This document shows positions 10,915-60,370 of a stretch of DNA of 64,000 nt, piece by piece. The stretch's first letter is position 1. Every line of letters begins with the position of its first letter. The stretch comes from Escherichia coli (lineage in GTDB: Bacteria; Pseudomonadota; Gammaproteobacteria; Enterobacterales; Enterobacteriaceae). Below the pieces are notes generated by a model, which ran no database searches, was not told the origin of the DNA, and worked only from the letters and a program-made list of their open reading frames with translations. Made by a program: the position numbers and the translations under genes. Location of the stretch: NCBI RefSeq assembly GCF_003790525.1, contig NZ_CP033635.1; one strand, given 5' to 3'.

Positions 10915-10941
10915 TCGATAACGATAATTAATTTCATTATC
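10915..10941. promoter_or_regulatory. Fur box in the divergent entS / fepD promoter region
   Basis: GATAACGATAATTAATTTCATTATC directly upstream of the fepD start; Fur-consensus-like hexamer repeats. Confidence 0.6.
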
Positions 10942-10953
10942 ATGGAAGTTCGT

Positions 10954-12947: not shown

Positions 12948-13759
12948 CCGAATCAGTAGCCCGTTTGCGCGGCGAACAGTTAACCCTCGGATATGGCAAA
13001 TATACCGTTGCGGAGAATCTGACTGTAGAAATACCTGATGGTCACTTCACGGCAATTATCGGGCCAAATGGCTGCGGTAAATCCACTTTACTGCGTACTT
13101 TAAGCCGCCTGATGACGCCTGCTCACGGGCATGTCTGGCTGGATGGCGAGCACATTCAACATTACGCCAGTAAAGAAGTTGCCCGGCGGATTGGTCTGTT
13201 GGCGCAAAATGCTACCACGCCGGGCGATATCACCGTGCAGGAGCTGGTGGCGCGTGGGCGTTATCCGCATCAACCGCTGTTTACCCGCTGGCGGAAAGAA
13301 GATGAAGAGGCAGTCACAAAAGCGATGCAGGCCACGGGAATCACTCATCTGGCAGATCAAAGCGTGGATACCCTTTCTGGCGGACAACGCCAGCGAGCGT
13401 GGATAGCAATGGTGCTGGCCCAGGAAACGGCAATTATGCTGCTCGACGAACCCACGACCTGGCTGGATATCAGTCATCAGATTGATCTCCTGGAACTGTT
13501 AAGCGAACTGAACCGCGAGAAAGGCTATACCCTGGCGGCGGTGCTGCACGATCTTAATCAGGCCTGTCGTTACGCCAGCCATTTGATTGCATTGCGGGAA
13601 GGGAAAATTGTTGCTCAGGGAGCGCCGAAGGAGATTGTCACTGCTGAACTGATTGAGCGCATTTATGGTCTGCGCTGCATGATTATTGACGATCCGGTTG
13701 CCGGAACGCCGCTCGTGGTGCCGCTCGGACGAACGGCACCTTCAACTGCCAAGATTTAA
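12944..13759 (+). CDS. fepC: Ferric-enterobactin ABC transporter ATP-binding protein
   Basis: 271-aa protein starting MTESVARL with Walker A GPNGCGKST. The listed ORF carries a 47-codon upstream extension overlapping fepG, judged an artefact; the ATG overlaps the fepG stop (ATGA). Confidence 0.93.
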   Translation: MTESVARLRGEQLTLGYGKYTVAENLTVEIPDGHFTAIIGPNGCGKSTLLRTLSRLMTPAHGHVWLDGEHIQHYASKEVARRIGLLAQNATTPGDITVQELVARGRYPHQPLFTRWRKEDEEAVTKAMQATGITHLADQSVDTLSGGQRQRAWIAMVLAQETAIMLLDEPTTWLDISHQIDLLELLSELNREKGYTLAAVLHDLNQACRYASHLIALREGKIVAQGAPKEIVTAELIERIYGLRCMIIDDPVAGTPLVVPLGRTAPSTAKI

Positions 13760-14889
13760 ACTAAGTGCTCTTCCATCACGGCATCCTGTTTTCTGGATGC
13801 CATCGCATGGCGCAACAGCACGCCACCACAAGCCACCATCCCGCCGATCATCGCAGAAAGGATCACAATAATCGCCTTACCCGGACCGTCTTTTTTCACT
13901 GGCAATGACGGGCTTAACTGATATTTAAACGGCGTAAAATTCACATCGTTGATATTTGCTTTTGTTAGCTGCTCAACAAGATACTGACGATTACGTAATT
14001 CACCGTTCAATTCCGCAACGTCAGTAACCGCTTTTTCAATTTCCAGTTTGCGTTCAATACCGTCTGCGCCGAGAGAAATAGAGAAATCGGGGTCATCTTT
14101 AACGGCCTGACCATTACTGTAAACGGGCTTTTTAATTCCTGCCGCGTTGGCAATGTCGAGTGAATAATTGAGGCGCTGAATGTTTGCATCAAGTTGATTT
14201 TTCGTTTTAATGCGATCCTGAGCCAGTTTTTCTTTTTCAAACTGGGTTTTGATCTCCAGTTTATTACGGACGTTTTCTATCGACTCTTTCACCACCAACG
14301 CAGATATATAATCGATATACCCGCTCAAAACGGTCTGCGCCTCTTCACTGGTTGGCGCGGTAAAACTTTGCGTCCAGGAGGTATACAGTGACGGTTCATC
14401 TTTTTTCTTACTGGCATTGTCATCAACCGCTTTCATTTTTTCGCTCAATGCGACGATAGCTCGATGCAAATCCAGTTCGTCGATTTTCGCCTCTTTTAAT
14501 TGGTCCATCACATAAGGTGATGAACGCAGGTACTCTTCCAGCAAGCTAACCGACTGAAACTTCTTGATAAACAGGTTAAATGCTTCTGTACGATCAATTT
14601 TGATATCCAGATCCAGCACACGAAGCTTAGTGAATGTTTTCTCCAGTTCTTGCCACTGAACAGGTTCTGGAGGCGTGACAACCGCCGCGCTGGTCCATTT
14701 TTGCGGCAGGATGAAAGAGATCAGCAATCCTGCGCAGGCAAACGCAAAAATGACCGCCATGACCGTTTTTTTTGCCCGCCATAAAACTTCGATTAGATTA
14801 AGTAAATCAATTTCATTATTACTGGGCGACGCCAGAGGATACTCGGGAAAATGAGCGTCACTTCCCTGTTTAATATTCAGTGATGACAT
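13756..14889 (-). CDS. fepE: Polysaccharide co-polymerase (Wzz family) FepE
   Basis: 377-aa protein starting MSSLNIKQ, 17 codons inside the listed ORF; stop codon overlaps the fepC stop on the opposite strand. Confidence 0.9.
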   Translation of the reverse strand: MSSLNIKQGSDAHFPEYPLASPSNNEIDLLNLIEVLWRAKKTVMAVIFAFACAGLLISFILPQKWTSAAVVTPPEPVQWQELEKTFTKLRVLDLDIKIDRTEAFNLFIKKFQSVSLLEEYLRSSPYVMDQLKEAKIDELDLHRAIVALSEKMKAVDDNASKKKDEPSLYTSWTQSFTAPTSEEAQTVLSGYIDYISALVVKESIENVRNKLEIKTQFEKEKLAQDRIKTKNQLDANIQRLNYSLDIANAAGIKKPVYSNGQAVKDDPDFSISLGADGIERKLEIEKAVTDVAELNGELRNRQYLVEQLTKANINDVNFTPFKYQLSPSLPVKKDGPGKAIIVILSAMIGGMVACGGVLLRHAMASRKQDAVMEEHLV

Positions 14890-15103
14890 GGGGTATAACC
14901 TGAAATGGGTCCAATAAGAGTAAATCTCCACGGCGCTCACTTTACCAGTTGGTGAGAATTATCCGAAGCTGAAGTTTGTAAATTCCTTCCACTGAATGCA
15001 ACATTCACTCTATTTAAGAGAAATATCCACCAAACTTATAAATTAAATAAATGATAAACCCATAATTATTTCCTGTAATTATGGGTTTATAGATAATATT
15101 AAT

Positions 15104-18100
15104 TTACCTGTTTAGCGTAGCGCGAATAATCGGCCCAATTTTTTCAAACGCCCCTGGAGAGATAATATCCACATGCGCACAATCCTGACGATAGATATCC
15201 AGCTCCGTAATCCACGGCGACCAGGCGCGTTCGGGATTCATACCTTCCTGAAGCGTGCGTTCAGCAACAAACAGCGTCGCTTTACCTTCAAACGGTACGC
15301 TATGAGCAGTCGTCAGCAGGCGCACAGCATCAGCGTAGTTGCCTTCAATGGTGGTAAACAACTCCGTTGAAGTACTTCCCTGCTGTGCCGCCAGGAAGGC
15401 CTCGCGCTCGCGGTTAATCTCCGCCAGCACTTCCGGGTCCAGGCCATTAGCCTCTTTTTCCTGCCAGTTTTGCGTTTCTGGCGGCCAGGTATCCAGCAAG
15501 CCAAGAAATGCCACCTGTTCGCCACGGGCACGCAGCCGCGCCGCAATACCCTGCGCCAGCGTACCGCCCAGCGAATAACCCAGCAGGTAATAAGGGCCGT
15601 GCGGTTGATGCTCAAGTAACGTTGCCAGATGCGCTTCGCAGACTTCATCCAGATTTGCCGCGGTCTGCATGGGGCCATTGGGGCGCGGCGACTGAATGCC
15701 GATAATCGACCATTGTGGATCGAGATAACGCGAGAGCACGCTGAACTGCCAGGCAAAACCGGAGGCCGGATGGAAACAAAACAGCGTCGGGCCATTACCT
15801 TCACGCAACGGCAGAATGGTTTCGAATCCCATGCGCCGGGAGCTGTCTTCTTCACCATCAATAATCGTTGCCAGTTTGGCGACAGTTGACGCGACCATCA
15901 CTTGCCCCGGCGTCACCTGTCGGGCAAACTGCCGACTTAACTGCGCAGCCAGTTTCATTGCCAGTAGCGAATGACCGCCAAGCGCAAAGAAATCAGCATC
16001 GGCATCCTGCACGTCACAACCCAGCAACGACGAGAATGCCGCGGCGATAATCGTTTCACTGCCCGCTTTCGGCGCACGCCCAGGCGCTTGTGCCTTCAGT
16101 TCAGGCAACGGTAAGGCTTTGCGATCCAGCTTGCCGTTGGCGCTAAGTGGTAACTGTGGAAGTTGCAGCAGAACCACCGGTACCATATGTGGTGGCAATG
16201 TTTCACGAAGCTGCGCCTGTAATGCGCTGGTATCCAACGGCAGACCTGATTGCGACACCAGATAGCCCACCAACTGACGCGCATCACCACCAGTGGCTGC
16301 CGCCTGGTTAATCACACAGGCGTGGGTAACGGCTTGTTCGACATCCGGCAGCGCCTGCATCACGCGATCAATTTCGCCCAGTTCGATACGCTGCCCGCGA
16401 ATTTTTAGCTGATCGTCACTGCGCCCGAGGTACTCCACTGCGCCGTTATCCAGCCAGCGGGCCACATCGCCGGTACGGTACATCCGTTCACCTGGGGCAA
16501 AAGGATCGGCAATAAAGCGGCTGGCGGTCAGATCGGGTCGTCCAAGATACCCCTGCGCCAGTTGAATACCGGTGAGATAGAGATCTCCCGCCACACCCGG
16601 CGGCACCGGATGCATCATCGCATCGAGAATGCGCAGGCCCGTATTCCACACCGGATAACCAATCGGCACACTGCTGCCGCGCACCTCTGCCAGTTCCTCG
16701 CCAAAAGCCGGATACCAACTGACATCTACCGCCGCTTCCGTCGGGCCATATAGATTATGCAACGGCGCGCCGGTTAACTGTTGCCATTCGCGGCATAAAT
16801 CAGCCGGTAAGGCTTCACCACTACAGAAAACCTGTTTCAACGTCGCGCAACTCTGGCGAGCGGTTTGCGGCGTCAGCGATGCAACAAATGCCGCCAGCAT
16901 CGACGGCACAAAGTGCGTGGTCGTTACGCCATAATCAGCAAAAAAATGCTGCATAGCGAGCGGGTCGCGGTGCGCTTCCGGTTCAGCCATCACAAGTTTC
17001 GCCCCGGCAATAAACGGCCAGAAAAACTCCCACACCGAGACATCAAAACTGCATGGCGTTTTTTGGGCAACGACATCTTCGCCTGTAAGCGGGTAATGGT
17101 TTTGCATCCAAAGCAGGCGATTAACGATAGCCGTCTGCCCGACCATTACCCCTTTTGGTCTGCCGGTGGAACCGGAGGTGAAGATGATATAAGCCGTGTG
17201 GTGCGGTTGTGAAAGCTGCAGCGGCGCACTGCCCTGTGGTGTAAGCGGGGCGTTATAGCAAAGGCGGGTTAAATCTGGAACATCGGCAAAGCGCGGCAGT
17301 TGATCGTCGGTGGTGATTAACAGCGACGGACGCGCATCTTCCAGCATCATTTTCAGGCGATCGTCCGGATAGCCGGTATCCAACGGTAGCCAGGCCGCAC
17401 CAGCTTCAACAATCGCATGTAGCGCCAGGGTCAAAAAGACCGAGCGCGGTAATGCCACCGCCACGCTGTCGCCTGGTTTAACGCCGCGCTCACGCAGCAG
17501 ATTCGCCAGCGCCACCACCTGTTCGCGCATTTCCCGATAGCTGAACTGGTAACGCGCATCAACCAGCGCCGGAGCATCCGGTGTTTTTGCCGCTTGTTCT
17601 GCCACCAGCGCGCTCAGCGTGGTTTCTGGAATCTCAACCTGAGTGGCGTTGATCTGCGCCAGCTGCGCATACTCGCCTGGCAGCATAATATCGACATCGC
17701 CGCACAACAGCGACGGATCCGCGGCGAACTGCGCAATCAGCATTTTCAGGCGTTCAGCATGCTGGATTAACGTTGGCTCAGCGTAACGCTGTTTATTGGC
17801 GATGATCTCAATACTCAAATCACCGTGTTCATCCGGGAACAGGGCCAGCTCAAGGTCATTAACCGGACCGGTTGCCAGGGTATGGGTTTGCGCCTGAACA
17901 CCAGGAATATCCAGTTGGTAATCAAATACCTTGATATTGAGTACCGGACCGAACAGCGGTTCCTCTCCTGCCGCTCGCCCACTGTCACGGACAATTTGTT
18001 CGGCGTCGTAGCGTTGATGGCGGCGCATTTTTTTCAGTTGAGCCGCCAGTCGGGTTGCCAGTTGCGGCAGCGTTTCTTGCGCCGCAATGTGAATACCCAA

Positions 18101-18985
18101 CGGCAAAACGTTGAGCACGGGTCCGGTAGCCGTCAGCGCCGCCGAGCCCAGTCGACGCATAAAGATAAATCCGGCAGCGTAGTCCATGCGGTTGCACAAT
18201 CGCCCCAGCCACAAAGCTGCCAACGCAAGGGCTAAATCGGTACGCTGCACACCTGAAAGTTGCGTAGCCAGCTGGCGGAATTCCCCGTCGGTAAATTCCA
18301 GTTTCAGGCGCAAAATATCTGCCGAAGCGCTGCGCCACGGTAAAGGTGCCGGAGAAAGTGACGCGGGCGGTGGCAGTTGACGACGCTGTTCCGCCCAGAA
18401 TGCCGCATCACGCTGCCAGGCTTCACTTTCGCGGTACTGCTGATACTCTTCCACTACATCAGCGAAAGGCGTAAACGGCGAAGCAGGCGTTGGTTCGCCA
18501 CGCAGCCATGCGCAGTAAATATTGGCGATCTGGCGTGTAATGGCCGGGAAACTGAAGCCATCGACCAGCAAATGGTGATAACGCTGATACCAGTACCAGC
18601 GGTTATCCGCCACCTGTATCAGCTGATGAAAGACCAGTGGTTTACCACTATCGACGCGCAGATCTTGTTGCAAATCCGCCTGCATTAATGCCCGCGCAGT
18701 ACCGTGCGGATCAATGTTGGTTCGCAGGTCGATAATTTCTGGCAGTTCGAACGTCTGCGCATCATCGACCCACTGCCAGACTTCGCCGTTATCTTCCGTA
18801 AAACGCATCCGCAACGTATCTGCTTGCGCTAGTCCGGCAACCACCGCGCGGGCCAGTAGTGGCGCATCAACCTCTCCGGTTAACTCAACGTAATGCGCCA
18901 CGCTCCAGGCGGAGGGTAAATCCGACAGTTTTTCTGCCATCCAGATGCCGGGCTGTGCGGCGACCAAAGGTAAATGCTGGCTCAT
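15104..18985 (-). CDS. entF: Enterobactin synthase component F (NRPS: C-A-PCP-TE, serine-activating)
   Basis: 1293-aa protein starting MSQHLPLVAAQPGIWMAEKL; condensation, adenylation, PCP (GGHSLLA) and thioesterase (GYSLGG) motifs visible. The listed ORF has a 46-codon upstream extension overlapping ybdZ. Confidence 0.95.
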   Translation of the reverse strand: MSQHLPLVAAQPGIWMAEKLSDLPSAWSVAHYVELTGEVDAPLLARAVVAGLAQADTLRMRFTEDNGEVWQWVDDAQTFELPEIIDLRTNIDPHGTARALMQADLQQDLRVDSGKPLVFHQLIQVADNRWYWYQRYHHLLVDGFSFPAITRQIANIYCAWLRGEPTPASPFTPFADVVEEYQQYRESEAWQRDAAFWAEQRRQLPPPASLSPAPLPWRSASADILRLKLEFTDGEFRQLATQLSGVQRTDLALALAALWLGRLCNRMDYAAGFIFMRRLGSAALTATGPVLNVLPLGIHIAAQETLPQLATRLAAQLKKMRRHQRYDAEQIVRDSGRAAGEEPLFGPVLNIKVFDYQLDIPGVQAQTHTLATGPVNDLELALFPDEHGDLSIEIIANKQRYAEPTLIQHAERLKMLIAQFAADPSLLCGDVDIMLPGEYAQLAQINATQVEIPETTLSALVAEQAAKTPDAPALVDARYQFSYREMREQVVALANLLRERGVKPGDSVAVALPRSVFLTLALHAIVEAGAAWLPLDTGYPDDRLKMMLEDARPSLLITTDDQLPRFADVPDLTRLCYNAPLTPQGSAPLQLSQPHHTAYIIFTSGSTGRPKGVMVGQTAIVNRLLWMQNHYPLTGEDVVAQKTPCSFDVSVWEFFWPFIAGAKLVMAEPEAHRDPLAMQHFFADYGVTTTHFVPSMLAAFVASLTPQTARQSCATLKQVFCSGEALPADLCREWQQLTGAPLHNLYGPTEAAVDVSWYPAFGEELAEVRGSSVPIGYPVWNTGLRILDAMMHPVPPGVAGDLYLTGIQLAQGYLGRPDLTASRFIADPFAPGERMYRTGDVARWLDNGAVEYLGRSDDQLKIRGQRIELGEIDRVMQALPDVEQAVTHACVINQAAATGGDARQLVGYLVSQSGLPLDTSALQAQLRETLPPHMVPVVLLQLPQLPLSANGKLDRKALPLPELKAQAPGRAPKAGSETIIAAAFSSLLGCDVQDADADFFALGGHSLLAMKLAAQLSRQFARQVTPGQVMVASTVAKLATIIDGEEDSSRRMGFETILPLREGNGPTLFCFHPASGFAWQFSVLSRYLDPQWSIIGIQSPRPNGPMQTAANLDEVCEAHLATLLEHQPHGPYYLLGYSLGGTLAQGIAARLRARGEQVAFLGLLDTWPPETQNWQEKEANGLDPEVLAEINREREAFLAAQQGSTSTELFTTIEGNYADAVRLLTTAHSVPFEGKATLFVAERTLQEGMNPERAWSPWITELDIYRQDCAHVDIISPGAFEKIGPIIRATLNR

Positions 18986-19200
18986 TGTGCCTCCTGCAAC
19001 TGGGTGAAATTCGCCGGTGTCAGAGTACGCCAGTGGGCTTCCAGCCACTGCTGGCAGGACGCCTGTGACTGCGGCTGACACACAACGTCCCAGCCTGCCG
19101 GTAAGGCGCATTGTTGCGGCCACAGACTGAATTGCCCCTGCGCATTGCGCAAAATGTAAAACGCTCCCTGTGGATCATCGAAGGGATTACTGAATGCCAT
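18982..19200 (-). CDS. ybdZ: MbtH-like protein, activator of the EntF adenylation domain
   Basis: 72-aa protein starting MAFSNPFDDP with conserved MbtH tryptophans; its stop overlaps the entF start. Confidence 0.9.
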   Translation of the reverse strand: MAFSNPFDDPQGAFYILRNAQGQFSLWPQQCALPAGWDVVCQPQSQASCQQWLEAHWRTLTPANFTQLQEAQ

Positions 19201-19202
19201 AT

Positions 19203-20405
19203 TCAACTCCTGTCATGGAAAAGTGGTTGCCAGAGGTCGATTAGCCCCTGCATCAAGCCACCGCGCCAACAAAGCGCATCATGTCCGCCGTCAACCTGAC
19301 GCCAGAAAATGGATTCTTTTAGGGGGTGTAATTGCGCATACAGCGCCTGATTGGCCTGCATGATCATCGGCTCGCGAACACCCGCTTCCAGCACAATGCG
19401 CAGACCTTCGGCGCTAACTTCACCAGTATTTAGCTGTTCAAGTAACATGCCCTCTTGGTGCCCGCCCCGATGCGGCCACCAGTACGAGCCTGACTGGCTT
19501 AATACACAGCCAAAGCGTTCAGGCCAGTGCAGTCCGGCATACAGCGCGGAAAGCCCACCAAAACTCTGTCCGGCGACCACGGTGCGATCGGCGCGATCGC
19601 TAAAAGGGGCAATAGCTTTCACCTGGGGTAATAACTCTTGCTGTACTGCCAGCCAGAAATCCGCATTACACGGCAGTTCGTGGGCGCGGTGCGTGGTGTC
19701 GATAGCGTCGATCAACACATACACGGCGGGCGGAAGTTGCCGACGATGGGTCAGCGAAGTCAGCGCAGGCCAGACGGGCATACTCTGCGCCCAAAATTCG
19801 CCATCAAGCAAAACTGCCAGCGGGCGTTCTTCTGCTGTTGCATCGCCGGTGGTAAAAATCCATACACGGCGTGAATTTTTCAACCGTTCACTTTTCCAGA
19901 TAATTTCTTTGGCAGGCGTTTCTGGCGCTTGCGGACAATCCCATCCCGGTTGCAGAGGCGCTTGCGGCATTTCGAGTGCAGAAACAGCGTGCCCTCGCCC
20001 GCCTTTCCAGCTTTGTGGATTCAGCGGATCGGCTATCGCCTGGGGTAATAGTTTTCGCCAGCCTTCGCGTAATTCGAGGCGATCGGGGGATGGTGCAGAA
20101 AAAATGTCATCGCGTTCGGTAGGAATAAAGCAGTAGCTGCCGCGCCAGTTGGCATTGAGTTGTGTCGTCCACTGCCAAACATCGGTTCCTGCAATTCGCT
20201 GCATCGACCGGGGCTGGCTGTTCTGATGGTGATCGGTCATGCCAGTGATATAGACCCATACGCGCTTTATCGTCGAGTGGCCTTCAGAACCTTGTGGATC
20301 ACGCCACCAGAAAGTGACCTCAAACATTTCGTCATTCAGACGTTGCCATTCCGGGCCATGTTTCGACTGCCACCAGCTCTCACTTCCTACTTTTAACGCC
20401 GTCAC
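19203..20405 (-). CDS. fes: Enterochelin (ferric-enterobactin) esterase
   Basis: 400-aa ORF with an esterase GQSFGG motif; matches remembered Fes. Confidence 0.93.
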   Translation of the reverse strand: MTALKVGSESWWQSKHGPEWQRLNDEMFEVTFWWRDPQGSEGHSTIKRVWVYITGMTDHHQNSQPRSMQRIAGTDVWQWTTQLNANWRGSYCFIPTERDDIFSAPSPDRLELREGWRKLLPQAIADPLNPQSWKGGRGHAVSALEMPQAPLQPGWDCPQAPETPAKEIIWKSERLKNSRRVWIFTTGDATAEERPLAVLLDGEFWAQSMPVWPALTSLTHRRQLPPAVYVLIDAIDTTHRAHELPCNADFWLAVQQELLPQVKAIAPFSDRADRTVVAGQSFGGLSALYAGLHWPERFGCVLSQSGSYWWPHRGGHQEGMLLEQLNTGEVSAEGLRIVLEAGVREPMIMQANQALYAQLHPLKESIFWRQVDGGHDALCWRGGLMQGLIDLWQPLFHDRS

Positions 20406-22927: not shown

Positions 22928-23025
22928 GCCGGATGCGGCGTGAACGCCTTATCCGGCCTACAAAAATCTTGCCAATTCAATATATTGCAGGATAGTGTAG
23001 GCCTGATAAGCGTAGCGCATCAGGC
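22928..23025. repeat. BIME: two inverted REP palindromes between fepA and entD
   Basis: GCCGGATGCGGCGTGAACGCCTTATCCGGCCTAC (22928-22961) and the inverted GTAGGCCTGATAAGCGTAGCGCATCAGGC (22997-23025) are canonical E. coli REP sequences. Confidence 0.75.
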
Positions 23026-23683: not shown

Positions 23684-23794
23684 TTGACAATATCTGGTAC
23701 GATTCGCCCGCAGCCATCACTGACCACGGGCGAAAGTGTAAAGCAGGTGCCTTACCATCCTGACCTGACAACCGGATATGCGGGGATTGCTCCC

Positions 23795-25130
23795 ATAAGC
23801 GCTAACTTAAGGGTTGTGGTATTACGCCTGATATGATTTAACGTGCCGATGAATTACTCTCACGATAACTGGTCAGCAATTCTGGCCCATATTGGTAAGC
23901 CCGAAGAACTGGATACTTCGGCACGTAATGCCGGGGCTCTAACCCGCCGCCGCGAAATTCGTGATGCTGCAACTCTGCTACGTCTGGGGCTGGCTTACGG
24001 CCCCGGGGGATGTCATTACGTGAAGTCACTGCATGGGCTCAGCTCCATGACGTTGCAACATTATCTGACGTGGCTCTCCTGAAGCGGCTGCGGAATGCCG
24101 CCGACTGGTTTGGCATACTTGCCGCACAAACACTTGCTGTACGCGCCGCAGTTACGGGTTGTACAAGCGGAAAGAGATTGCGTCTTGTCGATGGAACAGC
24201 AATCAGTGCGCCCGGGGGCGGCAGCGCTGAATGGCGACTACATATGGGATATGATCCTCATACCTGTCAGTTCACTGATTTTGAGCTAACCGACAGCAGA
24301 GACGCTGAACGGCTGGACCGATTTGCGCAAACGGCAGACGAGATACGCATTGCTGACCGGGGATTCGGTTCGCGTCCCGAATGTATCCGCTCACTTGCTT
24401 TTGGAGAAGCTGATTATATCGTCCGGGTTCACTGGCGAGGATTGCGCTGGTTAACTGCAGAAGGAATGCGCTTTGACATGATGGGTTTTCTGCGCGGGCT
24501 GGATTGCGGTAAGAACGGTGAAACCACTGTAATGATAGGCAATTCAGGTAATAAAAAAGCCGGAGCTCCCTTTCCGGCACGTCTCATTGCCGTATCACTT
24601 CCTCCCGAAAAAGCATTAATCAGTAAAACCCGACTGCTCAGCGAGAATCGTCGAAAAGGACGAGTAGTTCAGGCGGAAACGCTGGAAGCAGCGGGCCATG
24701 TGCTATTGCTAACATCATTACCGGAAGATGAATATTCAGCAGAGCAAGTGGCTGATTGTTACCGTCTGCGATGGCAAATTGAACTGGCTTTTAAGCGGCT
24801 CAAAAGTTTGCTGCACCTGGATGCTTTGCGTGCAAAGGAACCTGAACTCGCGAAAGCGTGGATATTTGCTAATCTACTCGCCGCATTTTTAATTGACGAC
24901 ATAATCCAGCCATCGCTGGATTTCCCCCCCAGAAGTGCCGGATCCGAAAAGAAGAACTAACTCGTTGTGGAGAATAACAAAAATGGTCATCTGGAGCTTA
25001 CAGGTGGCCATTCGTGGGACAGTATCCCTGACAGCCTACAAAACGCAATTGAAGAACGCGAGGCATCGTCTTAACGAGGCACCGAGGCGTCGCATTCTTC
25101 AGATGGTTCAACCCTTAAGTTAGCGCTTAT
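23795..25130 (+). mobile_element. Insertion sequence IS186 (IS4 family)
   Basis: Perfect 22-bp terminal inverted repeats (ATAAGCGCTAACTTAAGGGTTG at 23795-23816; reverse complement at 25109-25130), flanked by a 12-bp direct repeat GGGATTGCTCCC (23783-23794 and 25131-25142). Exact ends are ambiguous by 1 bp because the target is palindromic. Confidence 0.9.
23849..24960 (+). pseudogene. insL: IS186 transposase InsL, interrupted by an apparent 1-bp frameshift at a G5 run
   Basis: An N-terminal frame (MNYSHDNW..LAYGPGG, stop at 24080-24082) and a C-terminal frame (MSLREVTAWAQ.., 24010..24960) overlap and switch frame at GGGGG 24005-24009. Together they reconstitute a single IS4-type transposase of about 370 aa. 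Confidence 0.7.
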
Positions 25131-25152
25131 GGGATTGCTCCCCGCACAACGG

Positions 25153-25305
25153 CTACTTCTTCGGTTCGTAAGCGAGAACAGCCTTAAACTCAATATTACG
25201 TTCCTTCACCGTAAACTCACACAGCGAGTCTCCGACCAGAAGCGTAAATCCCAGCACCGTCAAACACAGCACTATGACTGCCACAAGGGCATATTTCGTC
25301 AGCAT
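25153..25305 (-). CDS. hokE: Hok-family type I toxin (small membrane peptide)
   Basis: 50-aa peptide [50 protein letters not shown], typical Hok/Gef. The listed 88-aa ORF is an in-frame upstream extension. Confidence 0.85.
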
Positions 25306-25737
25306 GTTTATATTGCCTCCATGCGAAGAAGGGACTACCATCCAAATTGTTCGGGTTTGGAGTGGCAGCCCCAGGGTTGATAGAAATATCTCCTGGGGCT
25401 TCATCTTTCCAGACCTCAAAGTTAACCTGAAACCGGAAAGCTTCAGGCACCCGCCGTTATCTTACCCTTCCTCAACAAAATAGCTGTTTATTTATACAGT
25501 AAATCCTGTTTCGGACTTCTCACTCCCCATTTGATCAACTGAAGCTGAACCCGTTTTTATCTGCACGCCTCAATCGTCAAAATTCTTCGCCGCCAGCCAA
25601 CTATGACGCAACTGGTCACATTGCAAAATGTAGCCAATTTGCTTCAGTCACCATCACCAAAAAAAGAAATATTCCAGAACTTCCGCATCTCGCCCAGTCG
25701 CTCCCACTTCTATACTGAATAGAAAACGCCAACATAA

Positions 25738-60185: not shown

Positions 60186-60370
60186 GCCGCATGCGGCGTG
60201 AACGCCTTATCCGGCCTACCGTTCCAACACCGACTGTAGGCCTGATAAGATGCGCCAGCATCGCATCAGGCATGGTGTGCCGATTGCCGGATGCGGCGTG
60301 AACGCCTTATCCGGCCTACCGTTCCGACACCGCCTGTAGACCTGATAAGACGCGCCAGCATCGCATCAGG
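60186..60370. repeat. BIME: four REP palindromes in alternating orientation downstream of purK
   Basis: REP units at about 60186-60219, 60235-60270, 60286-60319 and 60335-60370, i.e. an approximately 100-bp unit repeated twice (GCCGGATGCGGCGTGAACGCCTTATCCGGCCTAC and GTAGGCCTGATAAG..CATCAGGC). Confidence 0.75.

What the first reader, a model, noticed from the sequence alone, without database searches (positions are those of the whole stretch)
18982..19206. MbtH-like gene ybdZ is translationally coupled to the NRPS gene entF
The ybdZ stop overlaps the entF start in the fes-ybdZ-entF-fepE transcription unit, the typical arrangement for an MbtH-like activator of an adenylation domain. This is a known arrangement, noted because the automatic ORF list merges the region into an extended entF frame.
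Basis: partly seen in the sequence, partly recalled or inferred. Interest (0 to 1): 0.2.

Follow-up and report, generated by a model that had tools for sequence, protein, structure and literature searches.

The report
Known ybdZ–entF overlap in E. coli
This is the well-known small E. coli gene ybdZ, a helper protein for the enterobactin-making enzyme EntF; its stop codon overlaps the entF start codon exactly as in the reference genome, so the finding is correct but ordinary.

Summary
On the minus strand, ybdZ (18982-19200, 72 aa) ends in a TGA that shares three bases with the entF ATG (ATGA at 18985-18982). The window is the E. coli enterobactin cluster. It is 100% identical to strain SMS-3-5 over 801 bases at the junction, and K-12 has the same gene layout.

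YbdZ scores 77 bits against Pfam MbtH (cut-off 27). It is 69/72 identical to the YbdZ chain crystallised on EntF (PDB 5JA1). It keeps the three signature tryptophans (W27, W37, W57). Only W and P of the C-terminal WTDxRP motif survive, which is already published for YbdZ.

Two corrections apply. The true start is the ATG at 19200, not the TTG at 19206. "Translationally coupled" is an inference: entF has its own strong Shine-Dalgarno (AGGAGG, 4 nt upstream), and I found no paper testing coupling for this pair.

The ATGA overlap is kept in enterobacterial relatives at 73% and 65% identity. It is not universal for MbtH-like genes: 3 of 8 other loci had no NRPS gene directly downstream.

The 1339-aa "extended entF" is an artefact of the ORF lister. 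Already known; low interest.

The parts
18982..19200 (-). ybdZ coding sequence (72 aa plus TGA), an MbtH-like protein
   Evidence: Pfam PF03621 at 77.1 bits against a cut-off of 27. 69/72 identical to PDB 5JA1 chain B, YbdZ. RefSeq places ybdZ at the same coordinates in SMS-3-5 and K-12.
18982..18985 (-). ATGA overlap: entF start ATG (18985-18983) and ybdZ stop TGA (18984-18982)
   Evidence: Read directly from the sequence. Identical in K-12. Kept in relatives L002 and L003/L004.
18990..18995 (-). Shine-Dalgarno AGGAGG for entF, inside the last codons of ybdZ, 4 nt before the ATG
   Evidence: Best duplex with the 16S 3' end is -10.3 kcal/mol, the strongest of the start sites compared. AGGAGG or AAGGAG is kept at the same place in L002 and L003.
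19207..19211 (-). Shine-Dalgarno AGGAG for ybdZ, inside the last codons of fes, 6 nt before the ATG at 19200
   Evidence: Sequence and duplex energy of -6.9 kcal/mol. The alternative TTG at 19206 abuts it with no spacer.
19203..20405 (-). fes (enterochelin esterase, 400 aa); its TGA stop at 19205-19203 lies 2 nt before the ybdZ ATG (TGAATATG)
   Evidence: Pfam Enterochelin_N plus Esterase. RefSeq annotation. Junction sequence.
15104..18985 (-). entF (1293 aa, C-A-PCP-TE non-ribosomal peptide synthetase module)
   Evidence: Pfam Condensation, AMP-binding, PP-binding and Thioesterase. NCBIfam equivalog NF007605 at 2805 bits, aligned from residue 2. Full-length match to PDB 5JA1 chain A. 30 amino-acid differences from K-12 EntF.
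18986..19123 (-). 46-codon stop-free extension of the entF frame back to a GTG, an ORF-list artefact and not coding in this frame
   Evidence: Listed as part of the 1339-aa ORF. No homology covers it: the EntF family model, Pfam domains and the PDB chain all begin at the ATG at 18985. The GTG has only a weak SD-like match, 10 nt away. The region encodes the MbtH domain in another frame.
13756..14889 (-). fepE / wzz(fepE), the next gene downstream, 214 nt after entF
   Evidence: NCBIfam equivalog NF007699 at 621.6 bits. RefSeq annotation.

Best explanation
The feature is ybdZ, the only MbtH-like protein (MLP) gene of E. coli. It sits between fes and entF in the enterobactin cluster. Its 72-aa product binds the adenylation domain of EntF: two conserved tryptophans form a shallow pocket that receives an alanine or proline of the adenylation domain. 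This binding raises EntF solubility and serine-adenylation activity and is needed for enterobactin production. That part comes from published work on a 96%-identical protein. The last codons of ybdZ carry an AGGAGG Shine-Dalgarno, and its TGA overlaps the entF ATG (ATGA). Ribosomes finishing ybdZ are therefore positioned to restart on entF. This would tie synthesis of the helper to that of its 1:1 binding partner. This coupling step is inferred, at about 0.6 probability that a substantial share of entF initiation depends on ybdZ translation. The same strong SD could also recruit ribosomes independently. ybdZ starts 2 nt after the fes stop (TGAATATG), so the three genes are packed for sequential translation from one mRNA.
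For: Identity: the window is 100% identical to E. coli SMS-3-5 over 801 bases at the junction, and 5412 of 5426 complete genomes hold the segment, annotated fes/ybdZ/entF. K-12 has the same layout and identical junction sequences. MbtH membership: PF03621 at 77.1 bits. PDB 5JA1_B YbdZ matches at E=1e-46 with 69/72 identical, and 15 other MLP chains also match. W27, W37 and W57 are W in 99%, 100% and 95% of 119 diverse representatives, alongside N5-P-F-D-D, N19, Q23, S25-L-W-P, P34-x-G-W, C49 and P62. Partner: EntF is full length with C-A-PCP-TE and matches 5JA1_A end to end. [quoted passage not shown] Coupling: ATGA overlap with a strong SD. Both are conserved in relatives at 73% and 65% protein identity although the MLP C-terminal residues differ. 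No promoter-like or terminator-like site on the minus strand lies within ybdZ. 4 of 5 native E. coli ATGA pairs were coupled in reporter assays, mostly SD-dependent.
Against: Coupling has not been shown for this pair: no paper in the library combines ybdZ with translational coupling. The entF SD is strong enough (-10.3 kcal/mol) for de novo initiation. The predicted local RNA fold is no more stable than shuffled sequence (z = +1.05), so nothing obviously blocks free ribosomes. One of five tested E. coli ATGA pairs (bioBF) initiated independently. In more distant fes-MLP-NRPS clusters the overlap is replaced by +8 or +13 nt spacers or a -8 overlap, so the exact ATGA is not required for the MLP/NRPS partnership. 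YbdZ departs from the MLP consensus at E21Q, R46Q, L50Q, T58R, D59T and R61T.
Confidence: 0.9

Rival explanations
1. The overlap is only gene packing. entF is translated mainly by ribosomes that bind its own AGGAGG de novo, independently of ybdZ translation.
For: The SD is strong and only 4 nt from the ATG. No RNA structure more stable than chance hides it. More distant relatives keep the partnership with short spacers instead of an overlap. bioBF in E. coli behaves this way. 4-nt overlaps are common locally, at 3 of 9 co-directional pairs.
Against: ATGA plus SD is conserved across relatives whose MLP C-termini differ. 4 of 5 tested native E. coli ATGA pairs were coupled.
Confidence: 0.35
2. 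The long frame from the GTG at 19123 is the real entF start (1339 aa) and ybdZ is not a separate gene.
For: The frame is stop-free for 46 codons upstream of the ATG.
Against: The EntF equivalog model, the Condensation domain and the crystallised EntF all begin at the ATG at 18985. The other frame encodes a high-scoring MbtH domain identical to a crystallised protein. The GTG has only a weak, badly spaced SD-like match. A 46-codon open stretch in an alternative frame is not improbable by chance (about 0.1 for random codons; my estimate).
Confidence: 0.01
3. YbdZ starts at the TTG at 19206 (74 aa, MNMAFS...), as in the reader's coordinates, overlapping the fes stop.
For: It is the first start codon after an in-frame stop.
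Against: The TTG directly abuts the AGGAG with no spacer. RefSeq, close homologues (72 aa) and the crystallised protein all use the ATG.
Confidence: 0.03

Closest known systems
YbdZ of E. coli K-12 (b4511; PDB 5JA1 chain B, bound to EntF)
   Same: Same gene at the same locus. 72 aa with 69/72 identical residues. The fes/ybdZ and ybdZ/entF junction sequences are identical.
   Different: Three substitutions (V32A, I39V, T63A), none at a signature position. There are 6 nucleotide differences in 219.
MbtH-like proteins in general (Pfam PF03621; MbtH 2KHR, PA2412 2PST, FscK 6EA3, and others)
   Same: About 70-aa stand-alone protein. It has three conserved tryptophans, the S-x-W-P and P-x-G-W motifs, and is encoded in an NRPS cluster.
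   Different: Consensus E21, R46, L50 and the T, D and R of WTDxRP are replaced (Q, Q, Q; R, T, T). The E, R46 and last-R replacements are noted for YbdZ in PMC7593251; the rest come from my alignment. Many MLP genes are not directly upstream of an NRPS gene.
Native E. coli gene pairs with ATGA overlap that use termination-reinitiation (hyfHI, astDB, ydbH/ynbE, menDH; Huber et al. 2019, PMC6728339)
   Same: A 4-nt ATGA overlap with an SD inside the upstream gene.
   Different: Coupling was measured for those pairs and has not been measured for ybdZ-entF.
Fused MLP-adenylation proteins (SlgN1, NikP1) and ObiF1 with a C-terminal MLP
   Same: The MLP is tied physically or genetically to its adenylation partner, which gives 1:1 supply.
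   Different: Here the two are separate polypeptides in different reading frames, linked at most through translation.

Membership tests
MbtH-like protein (MLP) family, Pfam PF03621 | Match to the family profile above the curated cut-off | tested here: met
   77.1 bits against a cut-off of 27, E=6.7e-22, covering profile positions 2-52 of 53.
MbtH-like protein (MLP) family, Pfam PF03621 | Three conserved tryptophans, two of which form the pocket for the adenylation-domain Ala/Pro | tested here: met
   W27, W37 and W57 are present. The same columns are W in 99%, 100% and 95% of 119 representatives from clusters at 50% identity. The role of the Trp pocket comes from the literature.
MbtH-like protein (MLP) family, Pfam PF03621 | N-terminal and central consensus NxExQxSxWP-x5-PxGW | tested here: met
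   YbdZ has N19-A-Q21-G-Q23-F-S25-L-W27-P28, then QQCAL, then P34-A-G36-W37. The only departure is E21Q, where E is found in 65% of relatives.
MbtH-like protein (MLP) family, Pfam PF03621 | C-terminal consensus WTDxRP (a consensus motif, not required: the ObiF1 MLP lacks it) | tested here: inconclusive
   YbdZ has W57-R-T-L-T-P62, so only W and P are kept. The T in place of R is already reported for YbdZ. The protein with this same motif is an experimentally established MLP (PDB 5JA1).
MbtH-like protein (MLP) family, Pfam PF03621 | Small stand-alone protein (about 70 aa) encoded in an NRPS gene cluster | tested here: met
   72 aa, lying between fes and entF with fepA, entD and fepCDG nearby.
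MbtH-like protein (MLP) family, Pfam PF03621 | Binds an adenylation domain and raises its solubility or activity | not testable with these tools
   Known for the 96%-identical K-12 protein: co-crystal 5JA1 and the summary of the Felnagle 2010 and Schomer & Thomas 2017 results in PMC7593251.
Translationally coupled (termination-reinitiation) gene pair | Stop codon of the upstream gene overlaps or abuts the start codon of the downstream gene on the same strand | tested here: met
   ATGA at 18985-18982.
Translationally coupled (termination-reinitiation) gene pair | Both genes on one mRNA | not testable with these tools
   The consensus scan shows no promoter-like or terminator-like site on the minus strand within ybdZ. 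No transcript data are available here.
Translationally coupled (termination-reinitiation) gene pair | Translation of the downstream gene depends on translation of the upstream gene | not testable with these tools
   No experiment on this pair was found. The strong independent SD and the lack of an occluding structure leave independent initiation open.

The most novel reading that the evidence does not exclude
entF translation could depend strictly on ribosomes that have just finished ybdZ. In that case the ATGA junction, rather than the promoter, would set a fixed YbdZ:EntF ratio and deliver newly made YbdZ next to the nascent EntF. This has apparently never been tested for any MbtH-like/NRPS pair. 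It would explain why the overlap and its SD are kept in enterobacterial relatives while the fes-ybdZ spacing drifts from 2 to 98 nt.
Probability: 0.3. Interest if true: 0.25.

Novelty: already known. Interest (0 to 1): 0.07.

Why it matters
It matters little as a discovery. ybdZ, its MbtH-like nature, its complex with EntF and its position overlapping entF are all in reference annotation, the PDB and the literature. The practical value is for annotation: naive ORF listing gives a wrong 1339-aa EntF and a 74-aa YbdZ. The correct models are 1293 aa (ATG at 18985) and 72 aa (ATG at 19200). The one open point is whether the overlap really enforces coupled, stoichiometric synthesis of an NRPS and its helper. 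That is a modest, testable question relevant to heterologous NRPS expression.

Tried and rejected
(1) Fur box. I scanned for the consensus GATAATGATAATCATTATC with up to 3 mismatches. The only hit was at 10923-10941, with none in the fepA-fes spacer. The best match there has 6 of 19 mismatches. Iron regulation of the fes promoter therefore could not be confirmed by this simple scan. It is known from the literature (my own knowledge; not tested here).

(2) An RNA structure that would hide the entF SD and force coupling. The minimum-energy fold pairs the SD with an upstream GUCCUGC, but the fold is weaker than shuffled controls (z = +1.05, 172 of 200 shuffles fold at least as well). I rejected it as evidence.

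(3) NCBIfam has no model that matches YbdZ (0 families), so there was no equivalog-level test for it. Pfam and the PDB served instead.

(4) The Miller et al. 2016 EntF-YbdZ structure paper could not be read. The exact EntF residue that enters the Trp pocket is therefore not given.

(5) The word-indexed protein search returned mostly near-identical Escherichia sequences and fragments. The exhaustive representative search was needed for a diverse alignment.

(6) I did not run the costly scans of genome or metagenome collections. Eight context look-ups were enough for a finding of this kind. The survey of "typical arrangement" is therefore small. Its five fes-MLP-NRPS loci are probably related clusters, not independent samples.
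Full report
**What is in the sequence**

All genes discussed are on the minus strand. Reading 19260 to 18940 gives the following.

- fes ends ...CAT GAC AGG AGT TGA, with the stop at 19205-19203.
- Two bases later, an ATG at 19200 opens a 72-codon frame: MAFSNPFDDPQGAFYILRNAQGQFSLWPQQCALPAGWDVVCQPQSQASCQQWLEAHWRTLTPANFTQLQEAQ.
- That frame stops at the TGA at 18984-18982.
- The A before that TGA, together with its T and G, forms the ATG at 18985-18983. This ATG opens a 1293-codon frame ending at 15104.

The ORF lister reports an entF frame of 1339 aa starting at a GTG at 19123. It also reports a 74-aa ybdZ frame starting at a TTG at 19206.

**Where the window comes from**

An 801-base stretch across the junction is 100% identical to E. 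coli SMS-3-5 and several other strains. It is found at 95% identity or better in 5412 of 5426 complete E. coli genomes, always annotated fes / ybdZ / entF.

| Gene | Window coordinates (from the SMS-3-5 RefSeq annotation) |
|---|---|
| fes | 19203-20405 |
| ybdZ | 18982-19200 |
| entF | 15104-18985 |
| wzz(fepE) | 13756-14889 |

K-12 MG1655 has the same layout: fes 612737-613939, ybdZ 613942-614160, entF 614157-618038. Both junctions are base-for-base identical to the window.

The window's YbdZ differs from the K-12 protein at V32A, I39V and T63A. EntF differs at 30 of 1293 residues.

**Start codons**

The ATG at 19200 is supported over the TTG at 19206 on four grounds.

- RefSeq uses it.
- Close homologues are 72 aa.
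- The crystallised YbdZ aligns from query residue 1.
- AGGAG lies 6 nt before the ATG but touches the TTG.

The ATG at 18985 is supported for entF over the GTG at 19123 on three grounds.

- The NCBIfam EntF equivalog (2805 bits) aligns from residue 2.
- So do the Pfam Condensation domain and PDB chain 5JA1_A.
- AGGAGG lies 4 nt before this ATG (-10.3 kcal/mol). The GTG has only a weak match 10 nt away.

YbdZ scores 77.1 bits against Pfam MbtH (PF03621), whose cut-off is 27. Against the PDB it matches YbdZ in 5JA1 (E=1e-46, 69/72 identical) and 15 other MbtH-like chains. These include MbtH (2KHR) and PA2412 (2PST).

An exhaustive search of 1.84 billion cluster representatives found 723 relatives. 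I aligned YbdZ with 119 of them, each 60-110 aa long.

| Feature in YbdZ | Agreement among the 119 relatives |
|---|---|
| W27 | W in 99% |
| W37 | W in 100% |
| W57 | W in 95% |
| F7, P28, P34, G36 | 100% |
| N19 | 97% |
| C49 | 94% |
| S25 | 93% |
| N5 | 89% |
| Q23 | 86% |
| P62 | 85% |

YbdZ departs from the majority residue at six positions.

| Position in YbdZ | Majority residue |
|---|---|
| Q21 | E (65%) |
| Q46 | R (76%) |
| Q50 | L (63%) |
| R58 | T (53%) |
| T59 | D (72%) |
| T61 | R (70%) |

The tryptophan signature is therefore intact. [quoted passage not shown]

The replacements at E21, R46 and the last R are already described for YbdZ in PMC7593251. The ObiF1 MLP lacks the whole WTDxRP motif. 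The departure therefore does not bear on family membership.

One small point on the published consensus string. It gives seven residues between the conserved L and the last W. By my count, YbdZ and its aligned relatives have six.

**What it does (from the literature, not tested here)**

MLPs bind NRPS adenylation domains. Two of the conserved tryptophans form a shallow pocket that receives an alanine or proline of the adenylation domain. EntF has been solved with and without YbdZ (PMC10510592).

Deleting ybdZ abolishes enterobactin production, and YbdZ enhances EntF solubility and catalytic activity (PMC7593251, summarising Felnagle 2010 and Schomer & Thomas 2017). ybdZ is described as the only endogenous MLP gene of E. 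coli (PMC6668435).

The window's proteins are near-identical to those studied, so the function carries over.

**Is the overlap "translational coupling"?**

Shown here:

- the ATGA overlap;
- a strong SD inside the end of ybdZ;
- no promoter-like or terminator-like site on the minus strand within ybdZ;
- conservation of ATGA plus SD in relatives.

In L002 the MLP is 73% identical and the junction reads caggaggctccATGA. In L003 and L004 it is 65% identical and the junction reads aaggagccggacATGA. The overlap is kept although the last residues of the MLP differ.

By contrast, the fes-to-MLP distance drifts: 2 nt here, and 30, 98, 33, 40 and 21 nt elsewhere.

Published reporter work on native E. 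coli ATGA pairs found coupling in 4 of 5 pairs, usually helped by the SD (PMC6728339).

Not shown: any dependence of entF translation on ybdZ translation. No paper in the library addresses it. The SD is strong enough for free ribosomes. The local RNA fold is no more stable than shuffled controls.

I put the probability of substantial coupling at about 0.6.

**Is it "the typical arrangement"?**

| Locus | MLP identity to YbdZ | What follows the MLP gene |
|---|---|---|
| L002 | 73% | NRPS gene, 4-nt overlap |
| L003/L004 | 65% | NRPS gene, 4-nt overlap |
| L007 | 54% | NRPS gene, 8-nt overlap |
| L005/L006 | 46% | NRPS gene after an 8-nt spacer |
| L009 | 40% | NRPS gene after a 13-nt spacer |
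| L011 | 37% | type II thioesterase gene, 4-nt overlap |
| L008 | 48% | regulator gene; no NRPS gene called on the DNA fetched around it |
| L010 | 40% | no NRPS gene called on the DNA fetched around it |

The first five loci all have the order fes-MLP-NRPS, so they are probably one related cluster type and not independent samples. The arrangement is typical of enterobactin-like clusters, not of MLP genes as a class. The sample is small.

Four-nucleotide overlaps are also commonplace locally: fepD/fepG, fepG/fepC and ybdZ/entF make 3 of 9 co-directional neighbour pairs in 15 kb.

**The transcription-unit claim**

This cannot be tested with sequence tools. A simple Fur-box scan did not pick up the fepA-fes spacer.

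Between entF and fepE (a 214-nt spacer) lies a perfect 15-bp inverted repeat followed by a T-rich tail, 14 nt after the entF stop (15090-15054). It folds at -15.8 kcal/mol against -6.5 ± 2.3 for shuffles (z = -4.05; 0 of 200 shuffles fold as well).

K-12 has the same hairpin with an even better T-run, TTTTTTATTTGTTTG. Whether fepE is expressed by read-through or from its own promoter is therefore an open point for the "fes-ybdZ-entF-fepE unit".

**Verdict**

The identity and the signature test are passed, and the arrangement is already in reference annotation and the literature.

Three corrections:

- the start is at 19200;
- coupling is inferred, not shown;
- "typical" applies only to enterobactin-type clusters.

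Novelty: already known. Interest: low.

Noticed in passing
window 15054-15090 (minus strand), between entF and fepE: A perfect 15-bp AT-rich inverted repeat with a 7-nt loop, followed by a T-rich tail, lies 14 nt after the entF stop. It is far more stable than shuffled sequence (z = -4.05, 0 of 200). It is conserved in K-12, where the T-run is longer. It looks like an intrinsic terminator, which would separate fepE from the fes-ybdZ-entF transcript.
   Followed up: partly
window 23791-25135 (approx.), between entD and hokE: An IS186/IS421 element sits next to entD, as in K-12, but in the opposite orientation relative to entD. It has G5 instead of G6 at 24000-24004, which splits the transposase into 79-aa and 316-aa ORFs. 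This could be a real pseudogene or a homopolymer sequencing error. SMS-3-5, identical at ybdZ, has no IS here.
   Followed up: partly
window 19203-19205 / 19198-19200: The fes stop and the ybdZ start are only 2 nt apart (TGAATATG), with the ybdZ SD inside fes. fes-ybdZ may therefore be coupled too. In relatives this spacing is 21-98 nt, so it is not conserved, unlike the ybdZ-entF overlap.
   Followed up: partly
window 25297-25452 (-), 22963-23004 (+), 60239-60316 (-), 46894-46967 (-): Rfam matches above gathering score: sok antitoxin RNA (next to hokE), ES036 sRNA (between fepA and entD), naRNA4, and one tRNA.
   Followed up: no
window 10923-10941 (-): This is the only match in the window to the Fur-box consensus with 3 or fewer mismatches (GATAATGAAATTAATTATC). 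It lies just upstream of the ORF starting at 10942, probably the divergent fepD / entS control region. The fepA-fes spacer has no comparably good match.
   Followed up: no
protein hits P0005, P0006, P0012, P0036, P0039, P0046, P0070: Several database entries of 102-106 aa carry all or part of the YbdZ sequence. Two of them (P0039, P0070) are labelled 'enterobactin synthase subunit F'. They look like gene-calling or frameshift artefacts at this same overlap in other assemblies.
   Followed up: no
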